64,000 bases of DNA from Calditrichia bacterium (GTDB lineage: Bacteria; Calditrichota; Calditrichia; RBG-13-44-9; J075). A program made the position numbers and the translations under genes. Within the stretch, counting starts at the first letter, position 1; the number at the start of each line of letters is the position of its first letter. Location of the stretch: the NCBI GenBank assembly GCA_050633245.1, contig JBOEGD010000030.1, forward strand, positions 32,001-96,000, read 5' to 3'. The notes beneath the pieces were generated by a model. That model was not told the origin of the DNA. It made no database searches and was given only the letters and a program-made list of their open reading frames with translations. Below are positions 728 through 56,498 of the stretch, piece by piece.

Positions 728-1507
728 TTAAGGAGTCCAAGCCTCTTCAAGCGTTTCGCGAAAAAGAAGATCTAGAACCTCGGTTGAGGGCGTATCGTTC
801 CTTTGCACTGATTTAACAATATTCGAAAAATAGTCTATTTCCCGCTCAAGAAACCGGTTGAGAATCTCAATCTTCGGTTCCTTATCCATCTCCATACCAC
901 CGCGCTTTCTTTCCAATAAGCGAAGAACCTCAGATTTAACTGCTAAATCGTTAAGCTGAGAGTTTATAAGCTTCTGAAACTCCATTGGTGCAATGGTATC
1001 GGTCTGTTCTATCCATTTGCAGGCAAGAATTGGCCTGAGAACATAAAAGTATTTTTTAACTTTTACCATATCAGCTTTCAGATACTCACGAAAGTTTCCA
1101 GACGCCATGTTTAGATAATGATGTAAGCACGATTTTGCGCTAAAGTAGTCTGCCGACAGTCTGCGGAGGCGTTCGGTAGTTGAGAATTGCTCCAGATAAA
1201 CCAAGGGGCTGCCCAGCCATTCAAGCAATGGAGGATTCGATTTCCTAAACAGCCGAAGTGCCTTTTGCAATTCCCAGCCGGCAAAGTCCAAATCGTTTGG
1301 CAACATAACCTCAATTGTATCGCGCTTATTATCAATAGAAAGATACCATTCTGGCTTATGAATGTAGACAAAACGTACATCCCAGTCGCTATCCTGCGAG
1401 GCAAATCCCCAAGCTCGACTTCCGGATTCAACGGCAAAAAGGACTTTAACATTATGTTCACATTCAAAGTTGCGCAATTCTGTGGTAATAAGATTTTGTA
1501 TATTCAT
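728..1507 (-). CDS. Nucleotidyltransferase, DNA pol beta superfamily (YcgL/RlaP-like)
   Basis: ESGSRAWGFASQDSDWDVRFVY motif, plus KSNPPLLEWL and KKYFYVLRP. Confidence 0.85.
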   Translation of the reverse strand: MNIQNLITTELRNFECEHNVKVLFAVESGSRAWGFASQDSDWDVRFVYIHKPEWYLSIDNKRDTIEVMLPNDLDFAGWELQKALRLFRKSNPPLLEWLGSPLVYLEQFSTTERLRRLSADYFSAKSCLHHYLNMASGNFREYLKADMVKVKKYFYVLRPILACKWIEQTDTIAPMEFQKLINSQLNDLAVKSEVLRLLERKRGGMEMDKEPKIEILNRFLEREIDYFSNIVKSVQRNDTPSTEVLDLLFRETLEEAWTP

Positions 1508-38218: not shown

Positions 38219-38299
38219 GTAACTCACAAACTATAGATATCACTTGAACGCAGCTTATTGCCAATTCAGGTGGTATCTACTCCCAAAACAATTTTGAGC

Positions 38300-38334
38300 A
38301 AAAAAAAACACGGCAGGCCAAAGACCTGCCGTGT
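38300..38334 (-). terminator. Intrinsic terminator (minus strand)
   Basis: ACACGGCAGG-TCTTTGG-CCTGCCGTGT followed by a T-run. Confidence 0.88.
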
Positions 38335-38377
38335 AACCCAAATAACCAAAACAAAGGAGAGAGAAGACTCACCTTCT
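38300..38377 (-). ncRNA. Candidate trans-acting sRNA (~78 nt)
   Basis: Own -10 and activator site, 5' hairpin, single-stranded C/U- and G/U-rich seed, intrinsic terminator, and long complementarity to two distant loci. Confidence 0.65.
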
Positions 38378-38383
38378 TATGAG

Positions 38384-38426
38384 AATATACACCGTGAACT
38401 TACGTTACCATGTGATACCCTGCACA
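38384..38426 (-). promoter_or_regulatory. Class II CRP/FNR-type activated promoter of the candidate sRNA
   Basis: -10 TATATT (38389-38384); TGTGC-N6-TCACA (38426-38411) centred at -41.5 for +1 at 38377; poor -35. Confidence 0.55.
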
Positions 38427-38565
38427 AAAAGTTTACTTTCTCCCCCTTGCAACCCAACTAAAGATACATCATTTTTTTTCTATTTACAATCCACAACATA
38501 TAATTCTTCAAAAAACGCTCATCAGGCGTTATCTTTGCCCCTGTAAACCACAAAGAAACAGCATG

Positions 38566-46647: not shown

Positions 46648-47316
46648 CTAAACCGCCTCAACAAAGTTCAGTAAATGTCCTGACTTTTTTGCTTTTGTCT
46701 GTAAATATCCGCGATTAATGTCATTTGGTTCAATCTGCAGTGGAATGCGTTTACTGACATCAATACCAAATTCTTCCAATCCACGAATCTTATTGACGTT
46801 ATTTGTCAGAAGCTGTACAGAGTTTACGCCTAATGTTTTCAACATCTCGGCAGCAACATCATAGCGACGCAAATCATCTGGAAATCCCAAAAGATGGTTT
46901 GCCTCAACCGTATCATATCCTTCTTCTTGAAGAGCATAGGCACGAATCTTATTTCCAAGACCAATACCGCGACCTTCCTGTCGCATGTAAAGCACGATTC
47001 CACAATCACTATGATTGATATAGTTTAAACCTGCTTCGAGCTGTTCACGACAATCACACTTCAATGATCCGAGCACTTCACTCGTTAAGCACTCAGAATG
47101 AACACGAACCGGAACATTCTCACCATTGCTTATATCACCCTTCACAATCGCCAAGTGTTCCTTGTGGTCCAGCGTATTGCGAAAAACATAGACATCAAAA
47201 GCACCATGGGTTGTTGGCAGCTTTGTCTGGGCATAAATCCAGACGTTTTTCAAATTCTCTTTAATCACAGCGTACTCCGATCTGGCATGAGTCAAACAAC
47301 CAAAGTCCTCATGCAT
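46648..47316 (-). CDS. ribA: GTP cyclohydrolase II
   Basis: VRVHSECLTS..SLKCDC, QEGRGIGL, LLTNN. Exact start uncertain. Confidence 0.93.
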   Translation of the reverse strand: MHEDFGCLTHARSEYAVIKENLKNVWIYAQTKLPTTHGAFDVYVFRNTLDHKEHLAIVKGDISNGENVPVRVHSECLTSEVLGSLKCDCREQLEAGLNYINHSDCGIVLYMRQEGRGIGLGNKIRAYALQEEGYDTVEANHLLGFPDDLRRYDVAAEMLKTLGVNSVQLLTNNVNKIRGLEEFGIDVSKRIPLQIEPNDINRGYLQTKAKKSGHLLNFVEAV

Positions 47317-47459
47317 GAGTTAAATTTATATTTTGAGCCCTGCACAAGAATGTGCGCGAGGCGCTTGTATGTGTAATGTCAATATTTTCATCTTCGACGT
47401 TTGCCCATCCTCTATTAGTTTAGATGGATTTTTTAGCTAAAAGTTACCATGAATCGTAC

Positions 47460-47619
47460 ATACCAAAGGCCGACGGTGGAGTGTCGACCTCTGGCTTAAG
47501 CATTGGGGGAACAGGTTGGATATGTTGGAAGGCTTTATTAAGGAACAAGTTCCTTTGTTTAGATTATTTGGGTCAATTTTTATTTTTGTTATCCACATGA
47601 GCGTTTTGAACGTTTTCTT
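47460..47619 (-). ncRNA. Candidate ~160-nt RNA (sponge sRNA or structured ribA leader)
   Basis: Near-consensus promoter, 3' hairpin at 47463-47494 with G-U pairs on the minus strand, and 23-nt complementarity to the 38.3-kb sRNA seed. Confidence 0.5.
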
Positions 47620-47625
47620 GTTTAT

Positions 47626-47654
47626 ATAATAACAATACATCGCCTACTTGTCAA
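47626..47654 (-). promoter_or_regulatory. Strong sigma70 promoter
   Basis: TTGACA-N17-TATTAT with an extended -10 TG. Confidence 0.75.
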
Positions 47655-47665
47655 GGGGAAAAATG

Positions 47666-47706
47666 AAAAAATCGCCCAAAACGCTCGATGCGTTTTTGGG
47701 CGATTT
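47666..47706 (-). terminator. Intrinsic terminator of gcvP
   Basis: AAATCGCCCAAAA..TTTTGGGCGATTT stem with a T-run on the minus strand. Confidence 0.8.
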
Positions 47707-47730
47707 CAATTCAAAAATTAGGAGTGATTG

Positions 47731-50637
47731 TTATTCTACTTCAGAATATTCCTCAAGTGGAGGGCAGGCGCAAACCAAATTTCGATCTCCAAAGGCATTG
47801 TCAATTCGACCAACAGTTGGCCAAAATTTTCTCAGGCGCACAAACGGTAGCGGATAGACCGCCTGCTCACGAGAATAAGCGTGTTCCCAATCCGATGACA
47901 GAGCCTCTGTAGCGGTATGAGGCGAATTCTTCAGCACATTGTCTTCCGCATCGGCAACGCCAAGCTTAACATCCTGTATTTCGCGATAAATAGATAACAT
48001 TGCTTCACAAAAGCGATCGAGCTCGGCTTTGGATTCACTTTCAGTTGGTTCAATCATCATCGTTCCGATAACCGGCCACGACATGGTCGGTGCATGAAAA
48101 CCGTAATCCATCAAACGCTTCGCAATATCCTCTGCGTCCACTCCCGCTTCACCTTTGAACACACGCGTATCAATAATCAGTTCATGAGCAACAAAACCAT
48201 TACTTCCGGTATAGAGCGCCTTATAGTAGCCTTCAAGACAAGCCTTGATATAATTTGCATTCAATATTGCATATCGCGTCGACTCGGTAATTCCCCGCAG
48301 CCCTAACATTTTTATGTAGGCATAGGAAATTAACAGAATCGAAGCGCTACCCCAGGGCGCGGCCGAAATCGCCGAAATCGCCTTGGAACCACCAGTCTCA
48401 ACCTCTACATGTCCGGGCAGGTACGGAGCAAGATGCTTAGCTACACAAATTGGTCCCATTCCGGGTCCACCACCACCATGCGGAATGCTAAACGTTTTGT
48501 GTAAGTTCAAGTGACACACATCTGCGCCAATTAATCCGGGATTGGTTAACCCAACCTGTGCATTCATATTTGCGCCATCCATGTATACCTGACCACCAAA
48601 CTCATGAACAATTGAGCAGGCTTCCTGAACTGTTTCCTCAAATACACCGTGAGTAGATGGATAGGTAATCATTAATGCAGAGAGCGCGTCTGCGTGCTTC
48701 TCCGCTTTTTCGCGAAGATCCTGCAAATCGATATTTCCATTGTCTTCGCAGCGAATAACAACAACCTTCATTCCCGCCATAATTGCGCTGGCAGGATTGG
48801 TACCATGTGCAGATGATGGAATCAGAGCCACATTGCGATGGTGATCGCCGTGGTTTTGGTGATAAGCACGAATCACCATCATGCCGGCGTATTCTCCCTG
48901 AGCACCGGAGTTTGGTTGAAGAGATACCGCATCAAAACCTGTTATCTGGCATAACATGCGTTCTAACTCAGTAAAGATTTCGCTGTATCCGGCAGCTTGC
49001 TCCTTTGGAACAAACGGATGAAGCTTGCCAAACTCTGGCCACGTTACCGGTATGAGTTCGGCGGCAGCATTTAATTTCATTGTGCAGGAGCCAAGTGGAA
49101 TCATAGAGTTTGTAAGCGAAAGGTCTTTTTCTTCCAGAGACTTTATATAACGCATCATGTCGGTTTCACTACGATGCTTATGAAAAACCGGGTGCTCCAT
49201 AAATGGCGTATTTCTTTTCAGCGAAGAGCTGAATCTTAAATCGTCATCGTTGAATGAATCCAGATTTACGGCAGAAGCAGAGGCGCCGGTTAACGTTGAA
49301 AAGACAGCAAGAATCGCGTCCACATCGGCAAGGTCGGTTGTCTCGTTTACAGAAATACCGACGTGCCTGCCATCGATATAGCGAAAGTTAATTCCGGAAG
49401 CCAGCGCCGCTTTTTGCAGATCATCTGCGGAATGATCCCCGAGAGCAATTTTGATCGTATCAAAATATGTTTTGTTCAACTGCTCGAAACCGAGGTCAGT
49501 CAGTTCAGTACTTAGAATTTTAGCCTGAGCATGAACGCGTTCAGCGATTTCCTTCAACCCCTCTGGCCCATGATAAACGGCATAGAAGCCAGCCATGTTT
49601 GCCAGTAATACCTGGGCAGTACAAATATTTGACGTTGCCTTTTCACGGCGAATATGCTGCTCACGTGTTTGCAGTGCCATACGATACGCCTTATTGCCAT
49701 GCCGATCTACCGAGACCCCTATCAAACGACCTGGCAGCTGTCGTTTGTAGGCTTCCTTGGTTGCCAGGAAGGCAGAGTGTGGCCCGCCATACCCCATTGG
49801 AACGCCAAAGCGCTGAGCTGAACCAACTACGGCATCTGCGCCCATGCTGCCGGGAGATTTTAATAAGACCAAGCTGAGCAAGTCTGCAGAAACAGTAACT
49901 AAAACATCTTTTTCATGTGCGGTGGCAATGAGATCAGAATAATCGTGCACGTTGCCATCGAGATCAGGGTATTGTAAGAGTGCACCAAACACATCATCGC
50001 TAAAGTTGAATTCTGAAGGTAGTTGTATTCGCAGCTCAATATCCATGGGAACAGAACGGGTCTTTAGAATATCAATCGTTTGCGGCAAGCAAGTACTGGA
50101 AACCAGAAAAACATTAGCATTCTGCTTGCGCTTTGCGGCTGAGCGCGCGCGATACAGCAAGACCATTGCTTCTGCCGCTGCCGTTCCTTCATCGAGCAGC
50201 GAAGCGTTAGAAATTTCCATTCCGGTAAGATCCGCAACCGCTGTTTGATAATTAATCAGTGCTTCAAGCCGTCCTTGAGAGATCTCTGCCTGATACGGCG
50301 TATAAGACGTATACCAACTGGGATTTTCCAACACGTTCCGCAAAATTACGTTCGGGACAATACAATCGTGATAGCCCATACCGATGTACGATTTATAGAT
50401 AGAGTTTTTTGCTGCCGTTGCTTTTAGCTCGGTAAGAAAATGATGTTCACTCTGAGCAGGATCTATCGCCAGTTCTTTTTTTAAGCGGATTGATTGCGGA
50501 ACAGTCTTATCGATAAGTTCATCTAAAGACGCTACCCCAACTTTTTGAAGCATTGCGGAGACATCGTTCGAGCTGGTATTCAGATGTCTGGACTCGAAAG
50601 ACTCGAACTGTCTGATATTCTTTTTAAGCTTGCTCAT
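47731..50637 (-). CDS. gcvP: Glycine dehydrogenase (decarboxylating), P-protein
   Basis: [38 protein letters not shown]. Confidence 0.97.
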
Positions 50638-53170: not shown

Positions 53171-56100
53171 TTATTTGGACAACACCATTTTTCGGGAGGA
53201 TACAAATGAGCCTGCATTTATTTGATAGAAATAAACACCCGACGGGAACTGTGCAGCATTAAAGTCCAGTGTGTAAGCACCAGCACTCTGACGCTCACTT
53301 ACCAGGGTTGCTACTTTCTGTCCGGCAATGTTGAAGATAGTAACAGTTACGTCGCTTGATTGCGGAATAGAGTAGCGGATCGTAGTCGTCGGGTTGAACG
53401 GATTCGGATAGTTCTGCTCAAGCTCGAAGTTATTGATCGTTCCATCGAGCAGATCATCCTCAATACCTACGATTGGCGAGAACTCTACTACATCGCCATT
53501 TGGCAGTGCAGCAAAGAGTCCAAAAGCAGGACCGTTCTGGTTTGCTGAAGGCGTTAGGAAGCCAGAGGCAAAAACCTGAGCGGCTCCACCGGCAAGACCG
53601 GAAAGGTCAGCAGTAAAAGAAGCCACTACGGTTGAACCACTCGCATCCGTTACATCGAGTGTGTATGAAGCAGCAGGGACGCCAACATATCCCGTAATGT
53701 CACCATATGCCGCGTCGTCTACCAAGGTTGCAACACCGCGCGCAACGACGTCGACAGTTGGTGCATCGGAGGAGCCATGCAGCGCAGAGAACTCAACTGT
53801 ATTAACATCAGTAGAAGCTTCTTGACCTGTTGGATTGATGAACAGACCGAAAGCAGTACTTCGTCCATCCGGGTTCGGAGCAAATGCACTCGGATCGAGA
53901 ACACCATTGGCAATAACCACATAGGTCTCACCAGGAGTCAGAGTTACATTGAAATTAGCTAATGTATCACCAACACCACCGCTATTCGGACCGGCAACAC
54001 CAATGTCAATCGGCGTGCCCGCAGGTGCATCAATAAATGCAGTGGCATCACGGAAGGCAAAATCATCAAGAAGAATTCCACCGTTAAGATAAATATCAAC
54101 AACTGCTGCGCCAGGATCAGCGGCATTGTGAATGACTTGAACACGCGCTGTGTTGATCGCAGGAAATTCTACGATGTCACCCGTTGGTAAGGCTGCGAAT
54201 AAACCGAAAGCTGCGCCATTTTGATTTGCTGAAGGATCTAAAAATCCGGAAGCGAAAACAGTAGCGGCTCCGCCGGCGAGTCCCGAAAGATCAGCGGCGA
54301 AGGATGCGACCGTTACTGCTCCGCTTCCATCTTTTACGTCTAATGTATATGCTGCAGGGGGAACACCAATATAGCCGGTGATGTCACCATATGCTGCGTT
54401 GTCTACCAGTGTCGCAACACCCCGCGCATCAACATCAACAGTCGGCGCATCGGAAGAACCATGAACAGCAGCGAATTCAACGGTTGCCGGATCGCTGGAA
54501 GCTTCCTGGCCAACCGGATTAATAAATAAACCAAAAGCAGTGCTACGGCCATCAGGGTTCGGAGCAAAAGCTGTTGGATCGAGAACACCATTGGCAATGA
54601 TTACATACGTTTCACCAGCTGTAAGCGTCGCAGTAAAGTTCGCAAGCGTATCGCCTACACCGCCACTGTTAGGGCCAGCAACACCAATATCAAGCGGCGT
54701 GCCCGCAGGAGCATCAATAAATGCTGTTGCATCGCGGAAAGCAAAGTCGTCTAGAAGAAGTCCGCCGTTTAGGTAGACATCGACAATCGCTGCTGCCGGG
54801 TCGGCTGCATTGTGAATAACTTGAACACGGGCGGTTGTGATTGCCGGGAACTCTACAACATCACCTGTAGGTAAGGCTGCAAATAGCCCGAAAGCTGCAC
54901 CGTTTTGATTTGCTGAAGGATCCAGAAAACCGGAGGCGAACACCTGGGCTGCCCCGCCGGCAAGTCCGGAAAGGTCAGCTGCAAAGGACGCTACGGTTAC
55001 AGTACCTGTTGCATCTTTTACATCAAGCGTATAAGCTGCTGGTGGGACACCAACGTAACCGGTAATGTCGCCATAAGCTGCATCATTTACCAGAGTAGCA
55101 ACGCCGCGGGCATCGACATCAACTGTGGGCGCATCGGAAGAGCCATGTAAGGCAGAAAACTCAACCGTCGCTGGATCGGTGGATGCTTCCTGACCGAGTG
55201 GGTTTACGAACAGGGTAAAAGCAGTACTACGACCATCAGGGTTCGGCGCGAAAGCTGTTGGATCAAGAACACCGTTGGCGACAACAACGTAGGTCTCACC
55301 TGGTGTCAAAGTCACATTAAAGTTAGCAAGCGTATCGCCTACGCCACCACTATTCGGGCCAGCGACACCTATATCAATTGGTGTACCTGCAGGCGCATCG
55401 ATAAATGAAGTAGCATCGCGGAAAGCAAAATCATCAAGAAGAAGACCGCCATTGAGATACACATCCACAAGCGCAGCGCCTGGATCAGCCGCATTGTGAA
55501 TTACCTGGACTCGAGCAGTATTCGCTGCAGCACTTCCTTTATGAATAACGTGATCGACCCACAAATTGTCTGATGAGCTTCCTGAAGGACCTCCATCAGT
55601 TATGTAATAATTGATGGCGACGAATGGCTCGCTACCGGCAAATGCAGACATATCAAACGCATAACGATTCCAGGAACTAACAGGGCCATCGACTTTAAAG
55701 TAGCCAACAAGGTCTGTAAAGCTACCAAGTGAACTGTCGGTAGTCGAAACCCAAACACGAAGCGAATCAGGAAAATTACCATCGATTGCGCCAGCATAAA
55801 AGATTAGACTATCACCAGACTCAACGGCCGGTAATTGAGGTGAGATGATATATTCATCAATCAGAAACCCATTCGCATTATTAAAGCTGCTGAAAAAGAA
55901 ACTTTGTCCGGCTTCCGGGAAAATAGAATCACCGCTGAGAAAACCGACATCTTGACGAAATTCCCATCCGGCACCACTGCCGTCGTTATCAATCAACTGC
56001 CAACCGGCGGGCAGCGTAGTGGTATCAAATGTTTCTTCAAACTTAACGTTTTTCTCAGCAGCAACTTCCTGATTGCCGGGAACACCGCGCTCAAATTCAG

Positions 56101-56200
56101 TCGCGCGAATGCGATCTACAATTTCATCCTGCGCCAATAACGACATTGGCAGAACAAAAGCTGCAATCAGCAAACCTCGTAGTAAAACAGTAAACTTCAT
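53171..56200 (-). CDS. Secreted protein: cleaved-adhesin-like domain + 3 tandem DUF4397-type repeats + T9SS-like C-terminal domain
   Basis: ATG at 56200 with SD GGAGG; signal peptide; GWQLIDNDG..DEYIISP; ARVQVIHNAADP three times at a 684-nt period; QNYPNPFNP. Confidence 0.85.
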   Translation of the reverse strand: MKFTVLLRGLLIAAFVLPMSLLAQDEIVDRIRATEFERGVPGNQEVAAEKNVKFEETFDTTTLPAGWQLIDNDGSGAGWEFRQDVGFLSGDSIFPEAGQSFFFSSFNNANGFLIDEYIISPQLPAVESGDSLIFYAGAIDGNFPDSLRVWVSTTDSSLGSFTDLVGYFKVDGPVSSWNRYAFDMSAFAGSEPFVAINYYITDGGPSGSSSDNLWVDHVIHKGSAAANTARVQVIHNAADPGAALVDVYLNGGLLLDDFAFRDATSFIDAPAGTPIDIGVAGPNSGGVGDTLANFNVTLTPGETYVVVANGVLDPTAFAPNPDGRSTAFTLFVNPLGQEASTDPATVEFSALHGSSDAPTVDVDARGVATLVNDAAYGDITGYVGVPPAAYTLDVKDATGTVTVASFAADLSGLAGGAAQVFASGFLDPSANQNGAAFGLFAALPTGDVVEFPAITTARVQVIHNAADPAAAIVDVYLNGGLLLDDFAFRDATAFIDAPAGTPLDIGVAGPNSGGVGDTLANFTATLTAGETYVIIANGVLDPTAFAPNPDGRSTAFGLFINPVGQEASSDPATVEFAAVHGSSDAPTVDVDARGVATLVDNAAYGDITGYIGVPPAAYTLDVKDGSGAVTVASFAADLSGLAGGAATVFASGFLDPSANQNGAAFGLFAALPTGDIVEFPAINTARVQVIHNAADPGAAVVDIYLNGGILLDDFAFRDATAFIDAPAGTPIDIGVAGPNSGGVGDTLANFNVTLTPGETYVVIANGVLDPSAFAPNPDGRSTAFGLFINPTGQEASTDVNTVEFSALHGSSDAPTVDVVARGVATLVDDAAYGDITGYVGVPAASYTLDVTDASGSTVVASFTADLSGLAGGAAQVFASGFLTPSANQNGPAFGLFAALPNGDVVEFSPIVGIEDDLLDGTINNFELEQNYPNPFNPTTTIRYSIPQSSDVTVTIFNIAGQKVATLVSERQSAGAYTLDFNAAQFPSGVYFYQINAGSFVSSRKMVLSK

Positions 56201-56331
56201 AGAAGCCTCCAGATAAGATAGGGTTTTGGTTATTTGGGTTACACTTAAATTATCATACATACGTTGACTGCCTTGGGTTGAAGCAGACTTCGCTAAATAG
56301 TCAATTCGAAACCGCTTATGCCCGTTTTAAT

Positions 56332-56436: not shown

Positions 56437-56470
56437 TGCAAAATTTGCAGCAGTGATTGCAGAATTTGCG
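56437..56470. promoter_or_regulatory. Tandem enhancer (UAS) sites TGCA-N5-TGCR
   Basis: 56437-56449 and 56458-56470, 21 bp apart. Confidence 0.6.
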
Positions 56471-56498
56471 AACGATAAGCGTTTTGCGCGTTCAGCAA

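What the first reader, a model, noticed from the sequence alone, without database searches (positions are those of the whole stretch)
47460..47654. Separately promoted ~160-nt RNA complementary to the sRNA seed (candidate sponge)
Seen: directly after the gcvP terminator, a near-consensus promoter (TTGACA-17-TATTAT, extended -10) would start an A/C-rich RNA at about 47619. It contains ACCCAAAUAAUCUAAACAAAGGA, which covers most of the seed and anti-SD of the 38.3-kb sRNA. An AAGGAA-CUUG-UUCCUU hairpin, C-rich tracts and a 12-bp 3' hairpin follow. The site is about 235 nt from the ribA start, too far for simple SD occlusion. Established: sponge RNAs such as SroC for GcvB exist. Inference: an sRNA/anti-sRNA pair, or sRNA control of ribA read-through in place of an FMN riboswitch.
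Basis: partly seen in the sequence, partly recalled or inferred. Interest (0 to 1): 0.7.

Follow-up and report, generated by a model that had tools for sequence, protein, structure and literature searches.

The report
ribA leader RNA matching a small RNA
A strongly conserved, untranslated RNA made just upstream of a riboflavin gene carries a long, exposed match to a nearby small regulatory RNA, so the two very probably pair, but whether the leader soaks up the small RNA or is controlled by it needs an experiment.

Summary
The promoter is 11 of 12 with an extended -10. The 23-nt site, the small hairpin, the C-rich tract and the 12-bp 3' hairpin are all where stated.

The partner at 38.3 kb is a real, structured, roughly 156-nt minus-strand RNA (z -7.55). 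It has a single-stranded G/U-rich seed and a terminator.

Two metagenomic relatives (L055, L056) have 4-fold sites only 37-40% identical to the window. They still keep the whole unit, and their site pairs with the seed even better: 22 Watson-Crick pairs plus 1 G-U.

The same seed matches 22 of 22 bases in the 5' UTR of a 6xDUF4397 secreted-protein gene at 56.2 kb.

New context:
- The promoter is flanked by operator repeats of a family-wide regulon of a CarH/LitR-type (B12-binding photoreceptor-like) repressor.
- It is the orthologous ribA promoter.

The RNA is therefore the ribA leader. It probably ends partly at a conserved terminator-like hairpin. A sponge role is plausible but unproven, and no RNA data could be obtained.

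It belongs to no Rfam family and was not noted earlier in this scan. Verdict: a new member of a known kind, of moderate interest.

The parts
47673..47702 (-). Hairpin plus T run after the gcvP stop (gcvP terminator). Its 3' arm overlaps operator O1.
   Evidence: Sequence. A homologous terminator-like hairpin is listed in L056.
47671..47688 (-). Operator O1 (TCGAGCGTTTTGGGCGAT), an inverted copy of the family operator, upstream of the -35.
   Evidence: Conserved in L055 and L056, while the DNA further upstream cannot be aligned.
47626..47654 (-). Sigma-70-type promoter TTGACA-17-TATTAT with a TG extension. The start at about 47619 is predicted.
   Evidence: 11 of 12. L055 scores 12 of 12 and L056 11 of 12.
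47598..47615 (-). Operator O2 (AAACGTTCAAAACGCTCA) just downstream of the predicted start. It is transcribed.
   Evidence: Identical in L055 and L056.
47551..47573 (-). 23-nt site complementary to the sRNA seed.
   Evidence: The first 18 nt have a predicted unpaired probability of 0.7-1.0.
47540..47555 (-). Small hairpin AAGGAA-CUUG-UUCCUU, overlapping the 3' end of the site.
   Evidence: Invariant in the three lineages.
47505..47532 (-). C-rich block with two UCCAAC repeats, function unexplained. Its first 27 nt are invariant in the three lineages; the last C is A in L055 and L056.
   Evidence: No complement elsewhere in the genome. No significant pairing with the ribA RBS.
47451..47494 (-). 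12-bp hairpin plus tail UAUGUACGAUUC: candidate intrinsic terminator or attenuator. This would be the 3' end of the roughly 160-nt form.
   Evidence: 2 pairs changed on both sides, further one-sided changes. Terminator-like in L055 and L056, not listed in the window.
47269..47450 (-). Rest of the ribA leader: hairpin 47429..47407, degenerate third operator 47367..47352, hairpin 47314..47285 with a G/U-rich loop, and SD GGAG 47278..47275.
   Evidence: The RBS-proximal hairpin has pairs changed on both sides. O3 is intact in L055 and L056.
46648..47268 (-). ribA (GTP cyclohydrolase II), likely starting at GTG 47268.
   Evidence: Pfam PF00925, E 2e-66. Orthologues.
38300..38455 (-). Partner sRNA of about 156 nt: a long 5' hairpin, a free seed at 38351..38334, and a terminator at 38334..38308 plus a T run. 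Candidate promoter TTGTAA-17-TATCTT at 38489..38461.
   Evidence: No substitution listed in the X1 relative over 38292..38522.
56223..56244 (-). 22-nt site in the 5' UTR of the 6xDUF4397/T9SS gene (CDS 53171..56200), a perfect complement of the sRNA seed.
56476..56492 (-). Operator-like repeat about 250 nt upstream of the 56.2-kb site. Role uncertain.

Best explanation
The element is the 5' leader of ribA.

How it is made:
- It is transcribed from a near-consensus sigma-70 promoter flanked by operator repeats of a CarH/LitR-type (MerR HTH plus B12-binding) repressor. It is therefore probably switched on by light or B12 status (inferred).
- Part of the transcripts end at a conserved terminator-like hairpin, giving an A/C-rich, G-poor RNA of about 160 nt. 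The rest read through into ribA (inferred).

What it pairs with:
- The unpaired 5' half of the leader carries a 23-nt site. This site pairs with the free G/U-rich seed of a conserved, roughly 156-nt trans-encoded sRNA 9 kb away.
- The same seed pairs perfectly with the 5' UTR of a DUF4397 surface-protein gene. Genes of that kind belong to the same regulon in other genera. The leader RNA and that mRNA must therefore compete for the sRNA.

Proposed function: when the promoter is derepressed, the abundant leader acts as a decoy (sponge). This lifts sRNA control of the DUF4397 mRNA. The same pairing may also tune ribA read-through.

Status of each step: the predicted pairing, accessibility and conservation are shown by computation. 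Transcript ends, direction of control and the light signal are inferred.
For: Promoter and regulon:
- The promoter scores 11-12 of 12 in three lineages.
- The operator motif is in 13 of 15 family genomes, against about 0 for the reversed control.
- It lies within about 200 nt upstream of 16 of 17 CarH-like genes.
- CarH-like proteins carry MerR and B12-binding domains and the Wx9EH motif. The motif definition comes from passages of PMC9304148.
- ribA sits behind an operator-promoter in two other genomes.

Conservation:
- 4-fold sites of ribA are only 29/77, 31/77 and 29/79 identical among the three lineages.
- The leader from O2 to the 3' hairpin is 80-88% (window against relatives) and 92-100% (L055 against L056) identical.
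- DNA upstream of O1 cannot be aligned.

The site:
- 23 of 23 identical between L055 and L056. It pairs with 22 Watson-Crick pairs plus 1 G-U there, and 21 plus 1 G-U plus 1 mismatch in the window.
- Duplex energies are -38.4 and -32.3 kcal/mol. None of 500 shuffles reach them in any of the three.
- Both site and seed are predicted unpaired.

The sRNA:
- MFE -62.6 kcal/mol, z -7.55, against -37.8 for the other strand.
- A 12-bp terminator with T9.
- 100% identical to L055 from AGAAGG to the terminator.
- No substitution listed in X1 over 231 nt, while the flanks carry 38 in 205 nt.

Second target:
- 22 of 22 at 56.2 kb. Kept in L055 with one G-U-compatible change and one mismatch.
- The gene has six DUF4397 domains.
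- 4 of 7 first genes behind operator-promoters tested, and one more, are DUF4397 proteins.

Other points:
- The 3' hairpin has pairs changed on both sides and is terminator-like in L055 and L056.
- No Hfq was found in a 97%-complete genome, which fits long duplexes.
Against: - There are no transcript data. The one RNA run laid gave 0 reads and is no test.
- The window's hairpin lacks a good U tail and was not listed as terminator-like.
- ribA has no other recognisable promoter, so a strong terminator would starve it.
- The whole leader is conserved, including a 27-nt invariant C-rich block unrelated to the sRNA. Conservation of the site cannot be separated from that of its surroundings.
- The three site differences between the window and the relatives are 2 transitions and 1 transversion, which neutral change would also give.
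- In a genome-wide duplex scan the site is about fifth of 5454 prefiltered places. Several messy duplexes have similar energy.
- The operator-like repeat near the 56.2-kb gene is not in the usual promoter arrangement.
- The operator differs from known CarH operators: 9-bp repeats, not 11-bp nnnnTnnACAn.
Confidence: 0.4

Rival explanations
1. Plain target. The sRNA regulates ribA through the long leader, and titration of the sRNA is negligible. It could block or favour Rho loading on the C-rich, G-poor stretch, change termination at the hairpin, or displace a long-range contact with the hairpin loop just upstream of the ribA SD.
For: - The promoter is the orthologous ribA promoter, and no second promoter was found.
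- Leader nt 21-125 are 24-26% C and 10% G.
- Rho is present.
- The loop CUUUGGUUGUUUG of a covariation-supported hairpin can pair with the same site. The fraction of 1000 shuffles reaching the energy is 0.011 (L055) and 0.010 (L056).
- Regulation of this kind is known for rpoS and other long 5' UTRs (recalled, not looked up here).
Against: - The site-loop pairing is not significant in the window (0.093).
- No conserved alternative structure links the site to the terminator.
- The site lies about 283 nt from the start codon.
- Sharing the seed with a second, perfect target makes some competition unavoidable if both RNAs are present.
Confidence: 0.3
2. No pairing in vivo. The RNA is simply a conserved ribA 5' UTR. 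The complementarity reflects a shared A/C-rich leader motif or common descent of short segments.
For: - A/C-rich leaders ending in AAAGGAG recur in this genome, for example C2:29278.
- The three copies lie within 18 kb on one contig.
- The substitution pattern in the site is compatible with neutrality.
- Other places reach similar duplex energies.
Against: - Only these three places in 6.35 Mb come close. At up to 4 mismatches of the 20-mer they score 0, 0 and 4, and the other six hits also score 4. Shuffled 20-mers give 3-12 hits at that level but no near-perfect ones.
- The 38.3-kb copy is clearly an RNA of the opposite sense, by fold asymmetry and terminator.
- Site and seed both fall in predicted single-stranded stretches.
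- They stay complementary across lineages whose neutral sites are saturated.
Confidence: 0.2
3. A cis-acting riboswitch-like or protein-binding leader senses an unknown signal, and the sRNA match is incidental. The protein might recognise the two UCCAAC repeats.
For: - A 27-nt invariant block and several conserved hairpins in the leader.
- An analogous C-rich RNA with repeated CAACCUCUA-like units behind the same promoter type in G003.
Against: - No Rfam family, even at E up to 10.
- Most of the conserved part is predicted unstructured.
- The covariance model found no convincing homologues in 15 other family genomes.
Confidence: 0.07
4. The RNA encodes a small protein of 50-53 aa, from AUG 47598.
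For: A frame from an AUG is open in all three lineages.
Against: - No SD precedes the AUG.
- The invariant nucleotide block is read in different frames in the window and in L055/L056 (offset 0 against 1). About 21 codons therefore differ completely while the DNA is nearly identical.
- C-rich sequence is poor in stop codons anyway.
Confidence: 0.03

Closest known systems
SroC, the mRNA-derived sponge of GcvB in Salmonella and E. coli (PMC4474525; search listing and abstract seen)
   Same: - A G/U-rich sRNA seed that targets C/A-rich stretches upstream of start codons.
- A second transcript from the same regulatory neighbourhood carries a site for that same seed, so it would compete with mRNA targets.
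   Different: - SroC is cut out of an operon mRNA and works with Hfq and RNase E. Here the RNA is a 5' leader or attenuated transcript with its own promoter.
- Hfq was not found, and the duplex is much longer (23 bp).
- Neither RNA matches GcvB, SroC or any other Rfam family.
- Decay of the sRNA is untested.
sRNA control of Rho-dependent termination in long 5' UTRs, such as the rpoS leader with DsrA/ArcZ/RprA
   Same: A long untranslated, C-rich, G-poor leader with an sRNA site far upstream of the start codon. Rho is present.
   Different: No evidence of Rho action here. A hairpin resembling an intrinsic terminator lies between the site and the gene.
Riboswitch- or attenuator-derived leader RNAs that also act in trans, such as Listeria SreA and the B12-riboswitch-controlled EutX/Rli55 (recalled, not looked up)
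   Same: A prematurely ended 5' leader could have a second job as a trans-acting or sequestering RNA. There is a link to B12-dependent control.
   Different: Here B12 or light would act through a protein repressor at the promoter, not through an RNA aptamer. No aptamer was found.
CarH/LitR AdoCbl photoreceptor repressors and their operators (PMC9304148, passages read; PMC9758184, passages read)
   Same: - MerR-type HTH plus B12-binding domains, the Wx9EH motif and the axial His.
- An autoregulatory site upstream of its own gene.
- Operators made of tandem direct repeats at a sigma-70 promoter.
- Known LitR regulons include cofactor genes such as folE, encoding GTP cyclohydrolase I.
   Different: - The repeats are 9 bp (AAAACGCTC), not 11-bp nnnnTnnACAn.
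- They occur as inverted pairs on both sides of the promoter.
- The recognition helix reads IKRWTEE, not RxWERRY.
- Gly/Pro of the B12 motif is Ala.
- The regulon holds ribA and DUF4397 proteins. No photolyase or carotenoid gene was seen among the loci inspected.

Membership tests
sRNA sponge / anti-sRNA (SroC-type) | Base-pairs with the sRNA through the seed that the sRNA uses on its mRNA targets | tested here: met
   Predicted only. The 23-nt duplex overlaps by 19 nt the 22-nt duplex with the 56.2-kb 5' UTR.
sRNA sponge / anti-sRNA (SroC-type) | Exists as a discrete, abundant transcript | tested here: inconclusive
   There is a near-consensus promoter and a conserved terminator-like hairpin. 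There are no RNA reads, and the window's U tail is weak.
sRNA sponge / anti-sRNA (SroC-type) | Lowers the level or activity of the sRNA and derepresses its targets | not testable with these tools
   Needs genetics or reporters.
Trans-encoded base-pairing sRNA (the partner at 38.3 kb) | Own transcription unit with an intrinsic terminator, a single-stranded conserved seed and multiple complementary targets | tested here: met
   - Terminator.
- Fold z -7.55 and strand asymmetry.
- Seed unpaired.
- Identical in L055 and no substitution listed in X1.
- Two targets.
- The promoter is only weakly consensus-like (8 of 12 by eye; not listed).
Hfq-dependent sRNA / GcvB (Rfam RF00022) | Match to the family model; Hfq present | tested here: not met
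   No Rfam match in the window at gathering score. Hfq (PF17209) not found in the 97%-complete genome.
FMN riboswitch (RF00050) | Match to the covariance model upstream of a riboflavin gene | tested here: not met
   No match in 47200-47800 even at E up to 10. The genome's one FMN element is at C11:407578-407715.
Intrinsic terminator / transcription attenuator | G+C-rich hairpin followed by a U run, located between promoter and gene | tested here: inconclusive
   Listed as terminator-like in L055 and L056 but not in the window. The stem is supported by compensatory change. No alternative antiterminator was found.
CarH/LitR-controlled promoter | Regulator with MerR HTH, B12-binding domain, Wx9EH and axial His | tested here: met
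   with the motif definition from PMC9304148. The G/P position of the B12 motif is Ala.
CarH/LitR-controlled promoter | Operator of tandem 11-bp repeats nnnnTnnACAn overlapping the -35 | tested here: not met
   The operator here is a 9-bp tandem repeat of different sequence, flanking the promoter. The assignment of this operator to the CarH-like protein rests on association: 16 of 17 genes.
CarH/LitR-controlled promoter | Derepression by light | not testable with these tools
   Inferred from the family only.

The most novel reading that the evidence does not exclude
A light-gated RNA decoy circuit. In the dark, a B12-bound CarH-type repressor keeps the ribA leader off, and the G/U-rich sRNA silences leaky DUF4397 surface-protein mRNA. 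In light, the very strong leader promoter floods the cell with a decoy RNA that removes the sRNA. The photoreceptor regulon would thus be switched at both the transcriptional and the post-transcriptional level. This would be the first sRNA/anti-sRNA pair described in Calditrichota, and it would work without Hfq.
Probability: 0.2. Interest if true: 0.7.

Novelty: new member of a known kind. Interest (0 to 1): 0.45.

Why it matters
Calditrichota have no described regulatory RNAs. One search (Calditrichota, Caldithrix, small RNA, sRNA) listed no paper on the subject among the 10 rows shown.

This locus offers three things:
- a pair of new RNA families with a clear, conserved and testable interaction in a phylum that seems to lack Hfq;
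- a newly inferred operator and regulon for a B12-photoreceptor-type repressor that includes ribA and DUF4397 proteins;
- a concrete case in which a gene's leader and another mRNA of the same regulon share one sRNA seed.

If the decoy role holds, it would tie light sensing to RNA cross-talk. If it does not, the locus is still a tidy example of sRNA control of a riboflavin gene that lacks an FMN riboswitch.

Tried and rejected
- Rfam, whole window at gathering score and 47200-47800 at E up to 10: nothing credible.
- BLAST of the leader in 40 relatives and of the sRNA in 15 family genomes: only promoter/operator hits or noise. No same-genus genome is held.
- Covariance model R1 of the leader against 16 family genomes: only the window's own genome scored well. 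The five other hits (E 0.2-0.9) are anchored on the operator, and only G003:C39 looks like an analogue.
- Sequencing runs: no RNA holder listed. The poly-A RNA run X15 laid 0 reads, which is no test. The table of substitutions was cut off, so the X1 relative's bases in 47.4-47.7 kb could not be seen. Only its indels are known (47477, 47591, 47619), and none lies in the site.
- Anti-SD idea (C-rich block pairing with the ribA RBS): not better than shuffles (fractions 0.93, 0.20, 0.056). Rejected.
- Complement of the C-rich block elsewhere in the genome: none beyond its own antisense.
- Second promoter for ribA between the hairpin and the gene: none in the window or L056. One site listed in L055 overlaps the RBS and is not conserved.
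- Small-protein reading: frame not conserved.
- Similarity between the 38.3-kb and 47.5-kb loci beyond the 23-mer: none, so they are not duplicated genes.
- Light regulon check: no photolyase or carotenoid gene among the 10 plus 7 proteins scanned. The signal therefore stays inferred.
- Earlier notes of this scan: nothing near this place or on these words.

Full report
WHAT IS THERE

The window is G000:C30:32001-96000, from a 6.35-Mb, 45% G+C genome. Its nearest named relatives are Calditrichia MAGs (record titles).

On the minus strand, gcvP ends at 47731. ribA (GTP cyclohydrolase II, PF00925) follows.

Between the two genes lie these features (coordinates):
- a hairpin plus T run at 47702..47673;
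- the promoter TTGACA-17-TATTAT with a TG extension at 47654..47626, which scores 11 of 12;
- the 23-mer ACCCAAATAATCTAAACAAAGGA at 47573..47551;
- the AAGGAA-CUUG-UUCCUU hairpin at 47555..47540;
- a C-rich tract at 47532..47505;
- a 12-bp hairpin at 47494..47463.

I place the ribA start at GTG 47268. GGAG lies 7 nt upstream, and the N-terminal length fits the orthologues. The stretch between ATG 47316 and that GTG behaves like an RNA hairpin with compensatory changes, not like protein.

IS THE COMPLEMENTARITY MORE THAN CHANCE?

- The 23-mer matches 38336..38358(+) with two mismatches. None of 100 shuffles gave two matches.
- In the whole genome no other place comes within 4 mismatches.
- The similarity between the two loci stops at the 23-mer, so they are not duplicated genes.
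- A BLAST of the sRNA locus turned up a third copy. Window 56223..56244 is the 5' UTR of a gene on the minus strand and is identical over 22 of 22 bases to 38331..38352(+).
- At up to 4 mismatches of the 20-mer there are 9 hits, and the three copies score 0, 0 and 4. The other six also score 4, a level at which shuffled 20-mers give 3-12 hits.

THE PARTNER IS A REAL sRNA ON THE MINUS STRAND

- It has a 12-bp, 8-G-C terminator followed by T9.
- The 156 nt from 38455 to 38300 fold at -62.6 kcal/mol, z -7.55. None of 200 shuffles fold as well.
- The opposite strand reaches only -37.8 kcal/mol. This fits the many G-U pairs of the minus-strand fold.
- A long 5' hairpin buries CUCUCCUUUG. It leaves UUUUGGUUAUUUGGGUUA free, with unpaired probability 0.7-1.0, just before the terminator.
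- A weak but conserved TTGTAA-17-TATCTT lies upstream.

RELATIVES

No genome of the same genus is held. Two other sources helped.

Run X1:
- It contains a 20.7-kb syntenic contig.
- As far as the truncated table shows, it has 38 substitutions in the 205 nt flanking the sRNA locus and none in 38292..38522.

Metagenome contigs L055 and L056:
- A protein-anchored scan, and so one unbiased for the RNA, gave these two contigs with RibA 86% and 82% identical.
- 4-fold degenerate sites of ribA are only 29/77, 31/77 and 29/79 identical among the three lineages. Neutral positions are therefore close to saturation, and the three count as separate lineages.
- Even so, everything from the upstream operator to about 47400 aligns. 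The stretch from O2 to the 3' hairpin is 80-88% identical (window against relatives) and 92-100% (L055 against L056). DNA upstream of the operator cannot be aligned at all.
- The site reads ACCCAAATAACCAAAGCAAAGGA in both relatives. Against the unchanged seed this gives 22 Watson-Crick pairs and one G-U, at -38.4 kcal/mol. The window gives -32.3. None of 500 shuffled leaders reach these values in any of the three.
- L055 also holds the sRNA, identical from AGAAGG to the terminator.
- L055 holds the 56.2-kb-type 5' UTR site as well, with one G-U-compatible change and one mismatch.

A caution applies. The three site differences are two transitions and one transversion, which neutral drift would also give. 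The site is also no better conserved than its surroundings.

THE PROMOTER BELONGS TO A REGULON

- The promoter is flanked by AAACGTTCAAAACGCTCA just after the predicted start. An inverted copy lies upstream of the -35, inside the 'gcvP terminator'.
- With up to 2 mismatches this motif occurs in 13 of 15 other genomes of the family. It occurs in 1 of 4 and 4 of 17 genomes of two sister families. The reversed control pattern gives almost nothing.
- It often forms inverted pairs 54-70 nt apart around TTGACA-17-TATAAT.
- In two other genomes ribA itself sits 95-115 nt behind such an operator-promoter. The promoter in the window is therefore the orthologous ribA promoter with a much longer leader.
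- In L142 the divergent neighbour is a MerR-HTH plus B12-binding protein.
- The window's genome has two such genes. One (C28:1486-2325) lies directly behind two operator copies.
- Across the family, 16 of 17 such genes have an operator within about 200 nt upstream.
- The four genomes without such a gene have 0-1 operator hits.
- The proteins keep the Wx9EH motif and the axial His that define AdoCbl photoreceptors of the CarH type (definition from passages of PMC9304148).
- The operator (9-bp repeats) and the recognition helix differ from described CarH proteins.

Control by light or B12 is therefore an inference from family membership.

Known LitR regulons include cofactor genes such as folE (passages of PMC9758184), so ribA is a plausible member.

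DUF4397 lipoproteins are the commonest first gene behind these promoters: 4 of 7 tested, plus one. The 56.2-kb target gene encodes six DUF4397 domains and a T9SS tail. The sRNA's two complementary sites thus sit in two transcripts of one regulon theme.

LEADER OR STAND-ALONE RNA?

For a discrete RNA:
- The 3' hairpin is supported by two pairs changed on both sides, plus further one-sided changes.
- It is listed as terminator-like in L055 and L056.
- Conservation drops after about 47400.
- In G003 the same promoter type drives a stand-alone, roughly 170-nt C-rich RNA with a strong terminator.

For a leader:
- The promoter is orthologous to the ribA promoter of other genera.
- No other promoter for ribA was found.
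- The window's own U tail is poor.
- An intact third operator and a covariation-supported hairpin lie further down the leader.

I conclude that it is the ribA leader and that its hairpin probably stops part of the transcripts.

It is not a conserved coding sequence. The invariant block is read in different frames in the window and in the relatives, and the AUG has no SD.

It is not an FMN riboswitch. The genome's one FMN element lies elsewhere.

MECHANISM

Shown by computation:
- The free seed and the free first 18 nt of the site can nucleate a duplex that extends to 23 bp.
- The seed region used overlaps by 19 nt the one that pairs with the DUF4397 5' UTR, so the two RNAs compete for the sRNA.
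- Hfq was not found, which fits unusually long duplexes.
- Rho is present.
- The leader is C-rich and G-poor: 24-26% C and 10% G.

Inferred: when the repressor lets go, the near-consensus promoter makes far more leader than the weakly promoted sRNA, and the leader acts as a decoy. Alternatively or in addition, sRNA binding changes read-through into ribA.

A cis contact between the site and the loop CUUUGGUUGUUUG near the RBS is weakly supported in the relatives (0.011 and 0.010 of shuffles). It is not supported in the window (0.093).

Pairing of the C-rich block with the ribA RBS is not supported.

The invariant C-rich block, with two UCCAAC repeats, has no complement elsewhere in the genome. 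It remains unexplained and shows that the RNA does more than carry the sRNA site.

WHAT IS MISSING

There are no RNA data. No RNA holder was listed. The one RNA run laid gave no reads and is no test.

The substitutions of the X1 relative in the leader could not be seen. Only its indels are known, and none lies in the site.

Supplementary files of papers were not consulted.

VERDICT

It works like an sRNA decoy or target in a 5' leader. Membership in the sponge class cannot be established without experiments.

It is a new member of a known kind. It lies in a phylum for which I found no described regulatory RNA among the 10 rows listed by one literature search. The interest is moderate.

Noticed in passing
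Whole family (loci L025-L054). In the window: 47671-47688, 47598-47615, 56476-56492.: A family-specific operator AA[AT]CGCTCAAAACGCTCA, often as inverted pairs around a consensus promoter. It lies upstream of 16 of 17 CarH/LitR-like genes in 16 genomes. The inferred regulon holds ribA, 4xDUF4397 lipoproteins, a fasciclin protein, an SDR and a TMEM220-like protein.
   Followed up: partly
L004 about 1109-1466 (minus) = G000:C24, near 104400: An ArsC/Spx-like gene behind an operator-promoter has an in-frame TGA at the first position of a UxxC-like motif (MKKVHWYYHRSG-TGA-NTCKK). It is a likely selenoprotein. The genome is known from earlier notes to use selenocysteine.
   Followed up: no
window 56223-56244 (minus), gene 53171-56200: The 5' UTR of a 1009-aa protein with six DUF4397 domains and a T9SS sorting tail is a perfect 22-nt complement of the 38.3-kb sRNA seed. 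It is probably the sRNA's main mRNA target.
   Followed up: partly
window 47505-47532 (minus): A C-rich block with two UCCAAC repeats. Its first 27 nt are identical in three lineages whose 4-fold sites are 37-40% identical. No complement was found elsewhere in the genome, and its function is unexplained.
   Followed up: partly
L138 = G003:C39:38966-39150 (minus); also L002: An analogous unit in another genus: operator pair, a 12-of-12-like promoter, a roughly 170-nt A- then C-rich RNA with repeated AACCUCUA units, and a strong terminator. It is not next to ribA.
   Followed up: partly
window 56440-56475 (minus); L055:350-395: Conserved palindromic motifs TCGCAAATTCTGCAA and TGCAAATTTTGCA next to the operator-like repeat upstream of the DUF4397 gene. 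They may be the site of another regulator.
   Followed up: no
L030, L046, L028 (genus g11): A variant operator-promoter (TTTACA ... TATAAT) is followed by odd tandem repeats of AATACG/CGTAA-like units instead of a gene.
   Followed up: no
G000:C11:407578-407715 (+), locus L135: The genome's single FMN riboswitch (99 bits), far from ribA.
   Followed up: no
G000:C30:101351-102184 (minus), about 5 kb beyond the window's end: A second CarH/LitR-like paralogue. It is the only one of 17 in the family without an operator hit upstream at up to 2 mismatches.
   Followed up: no
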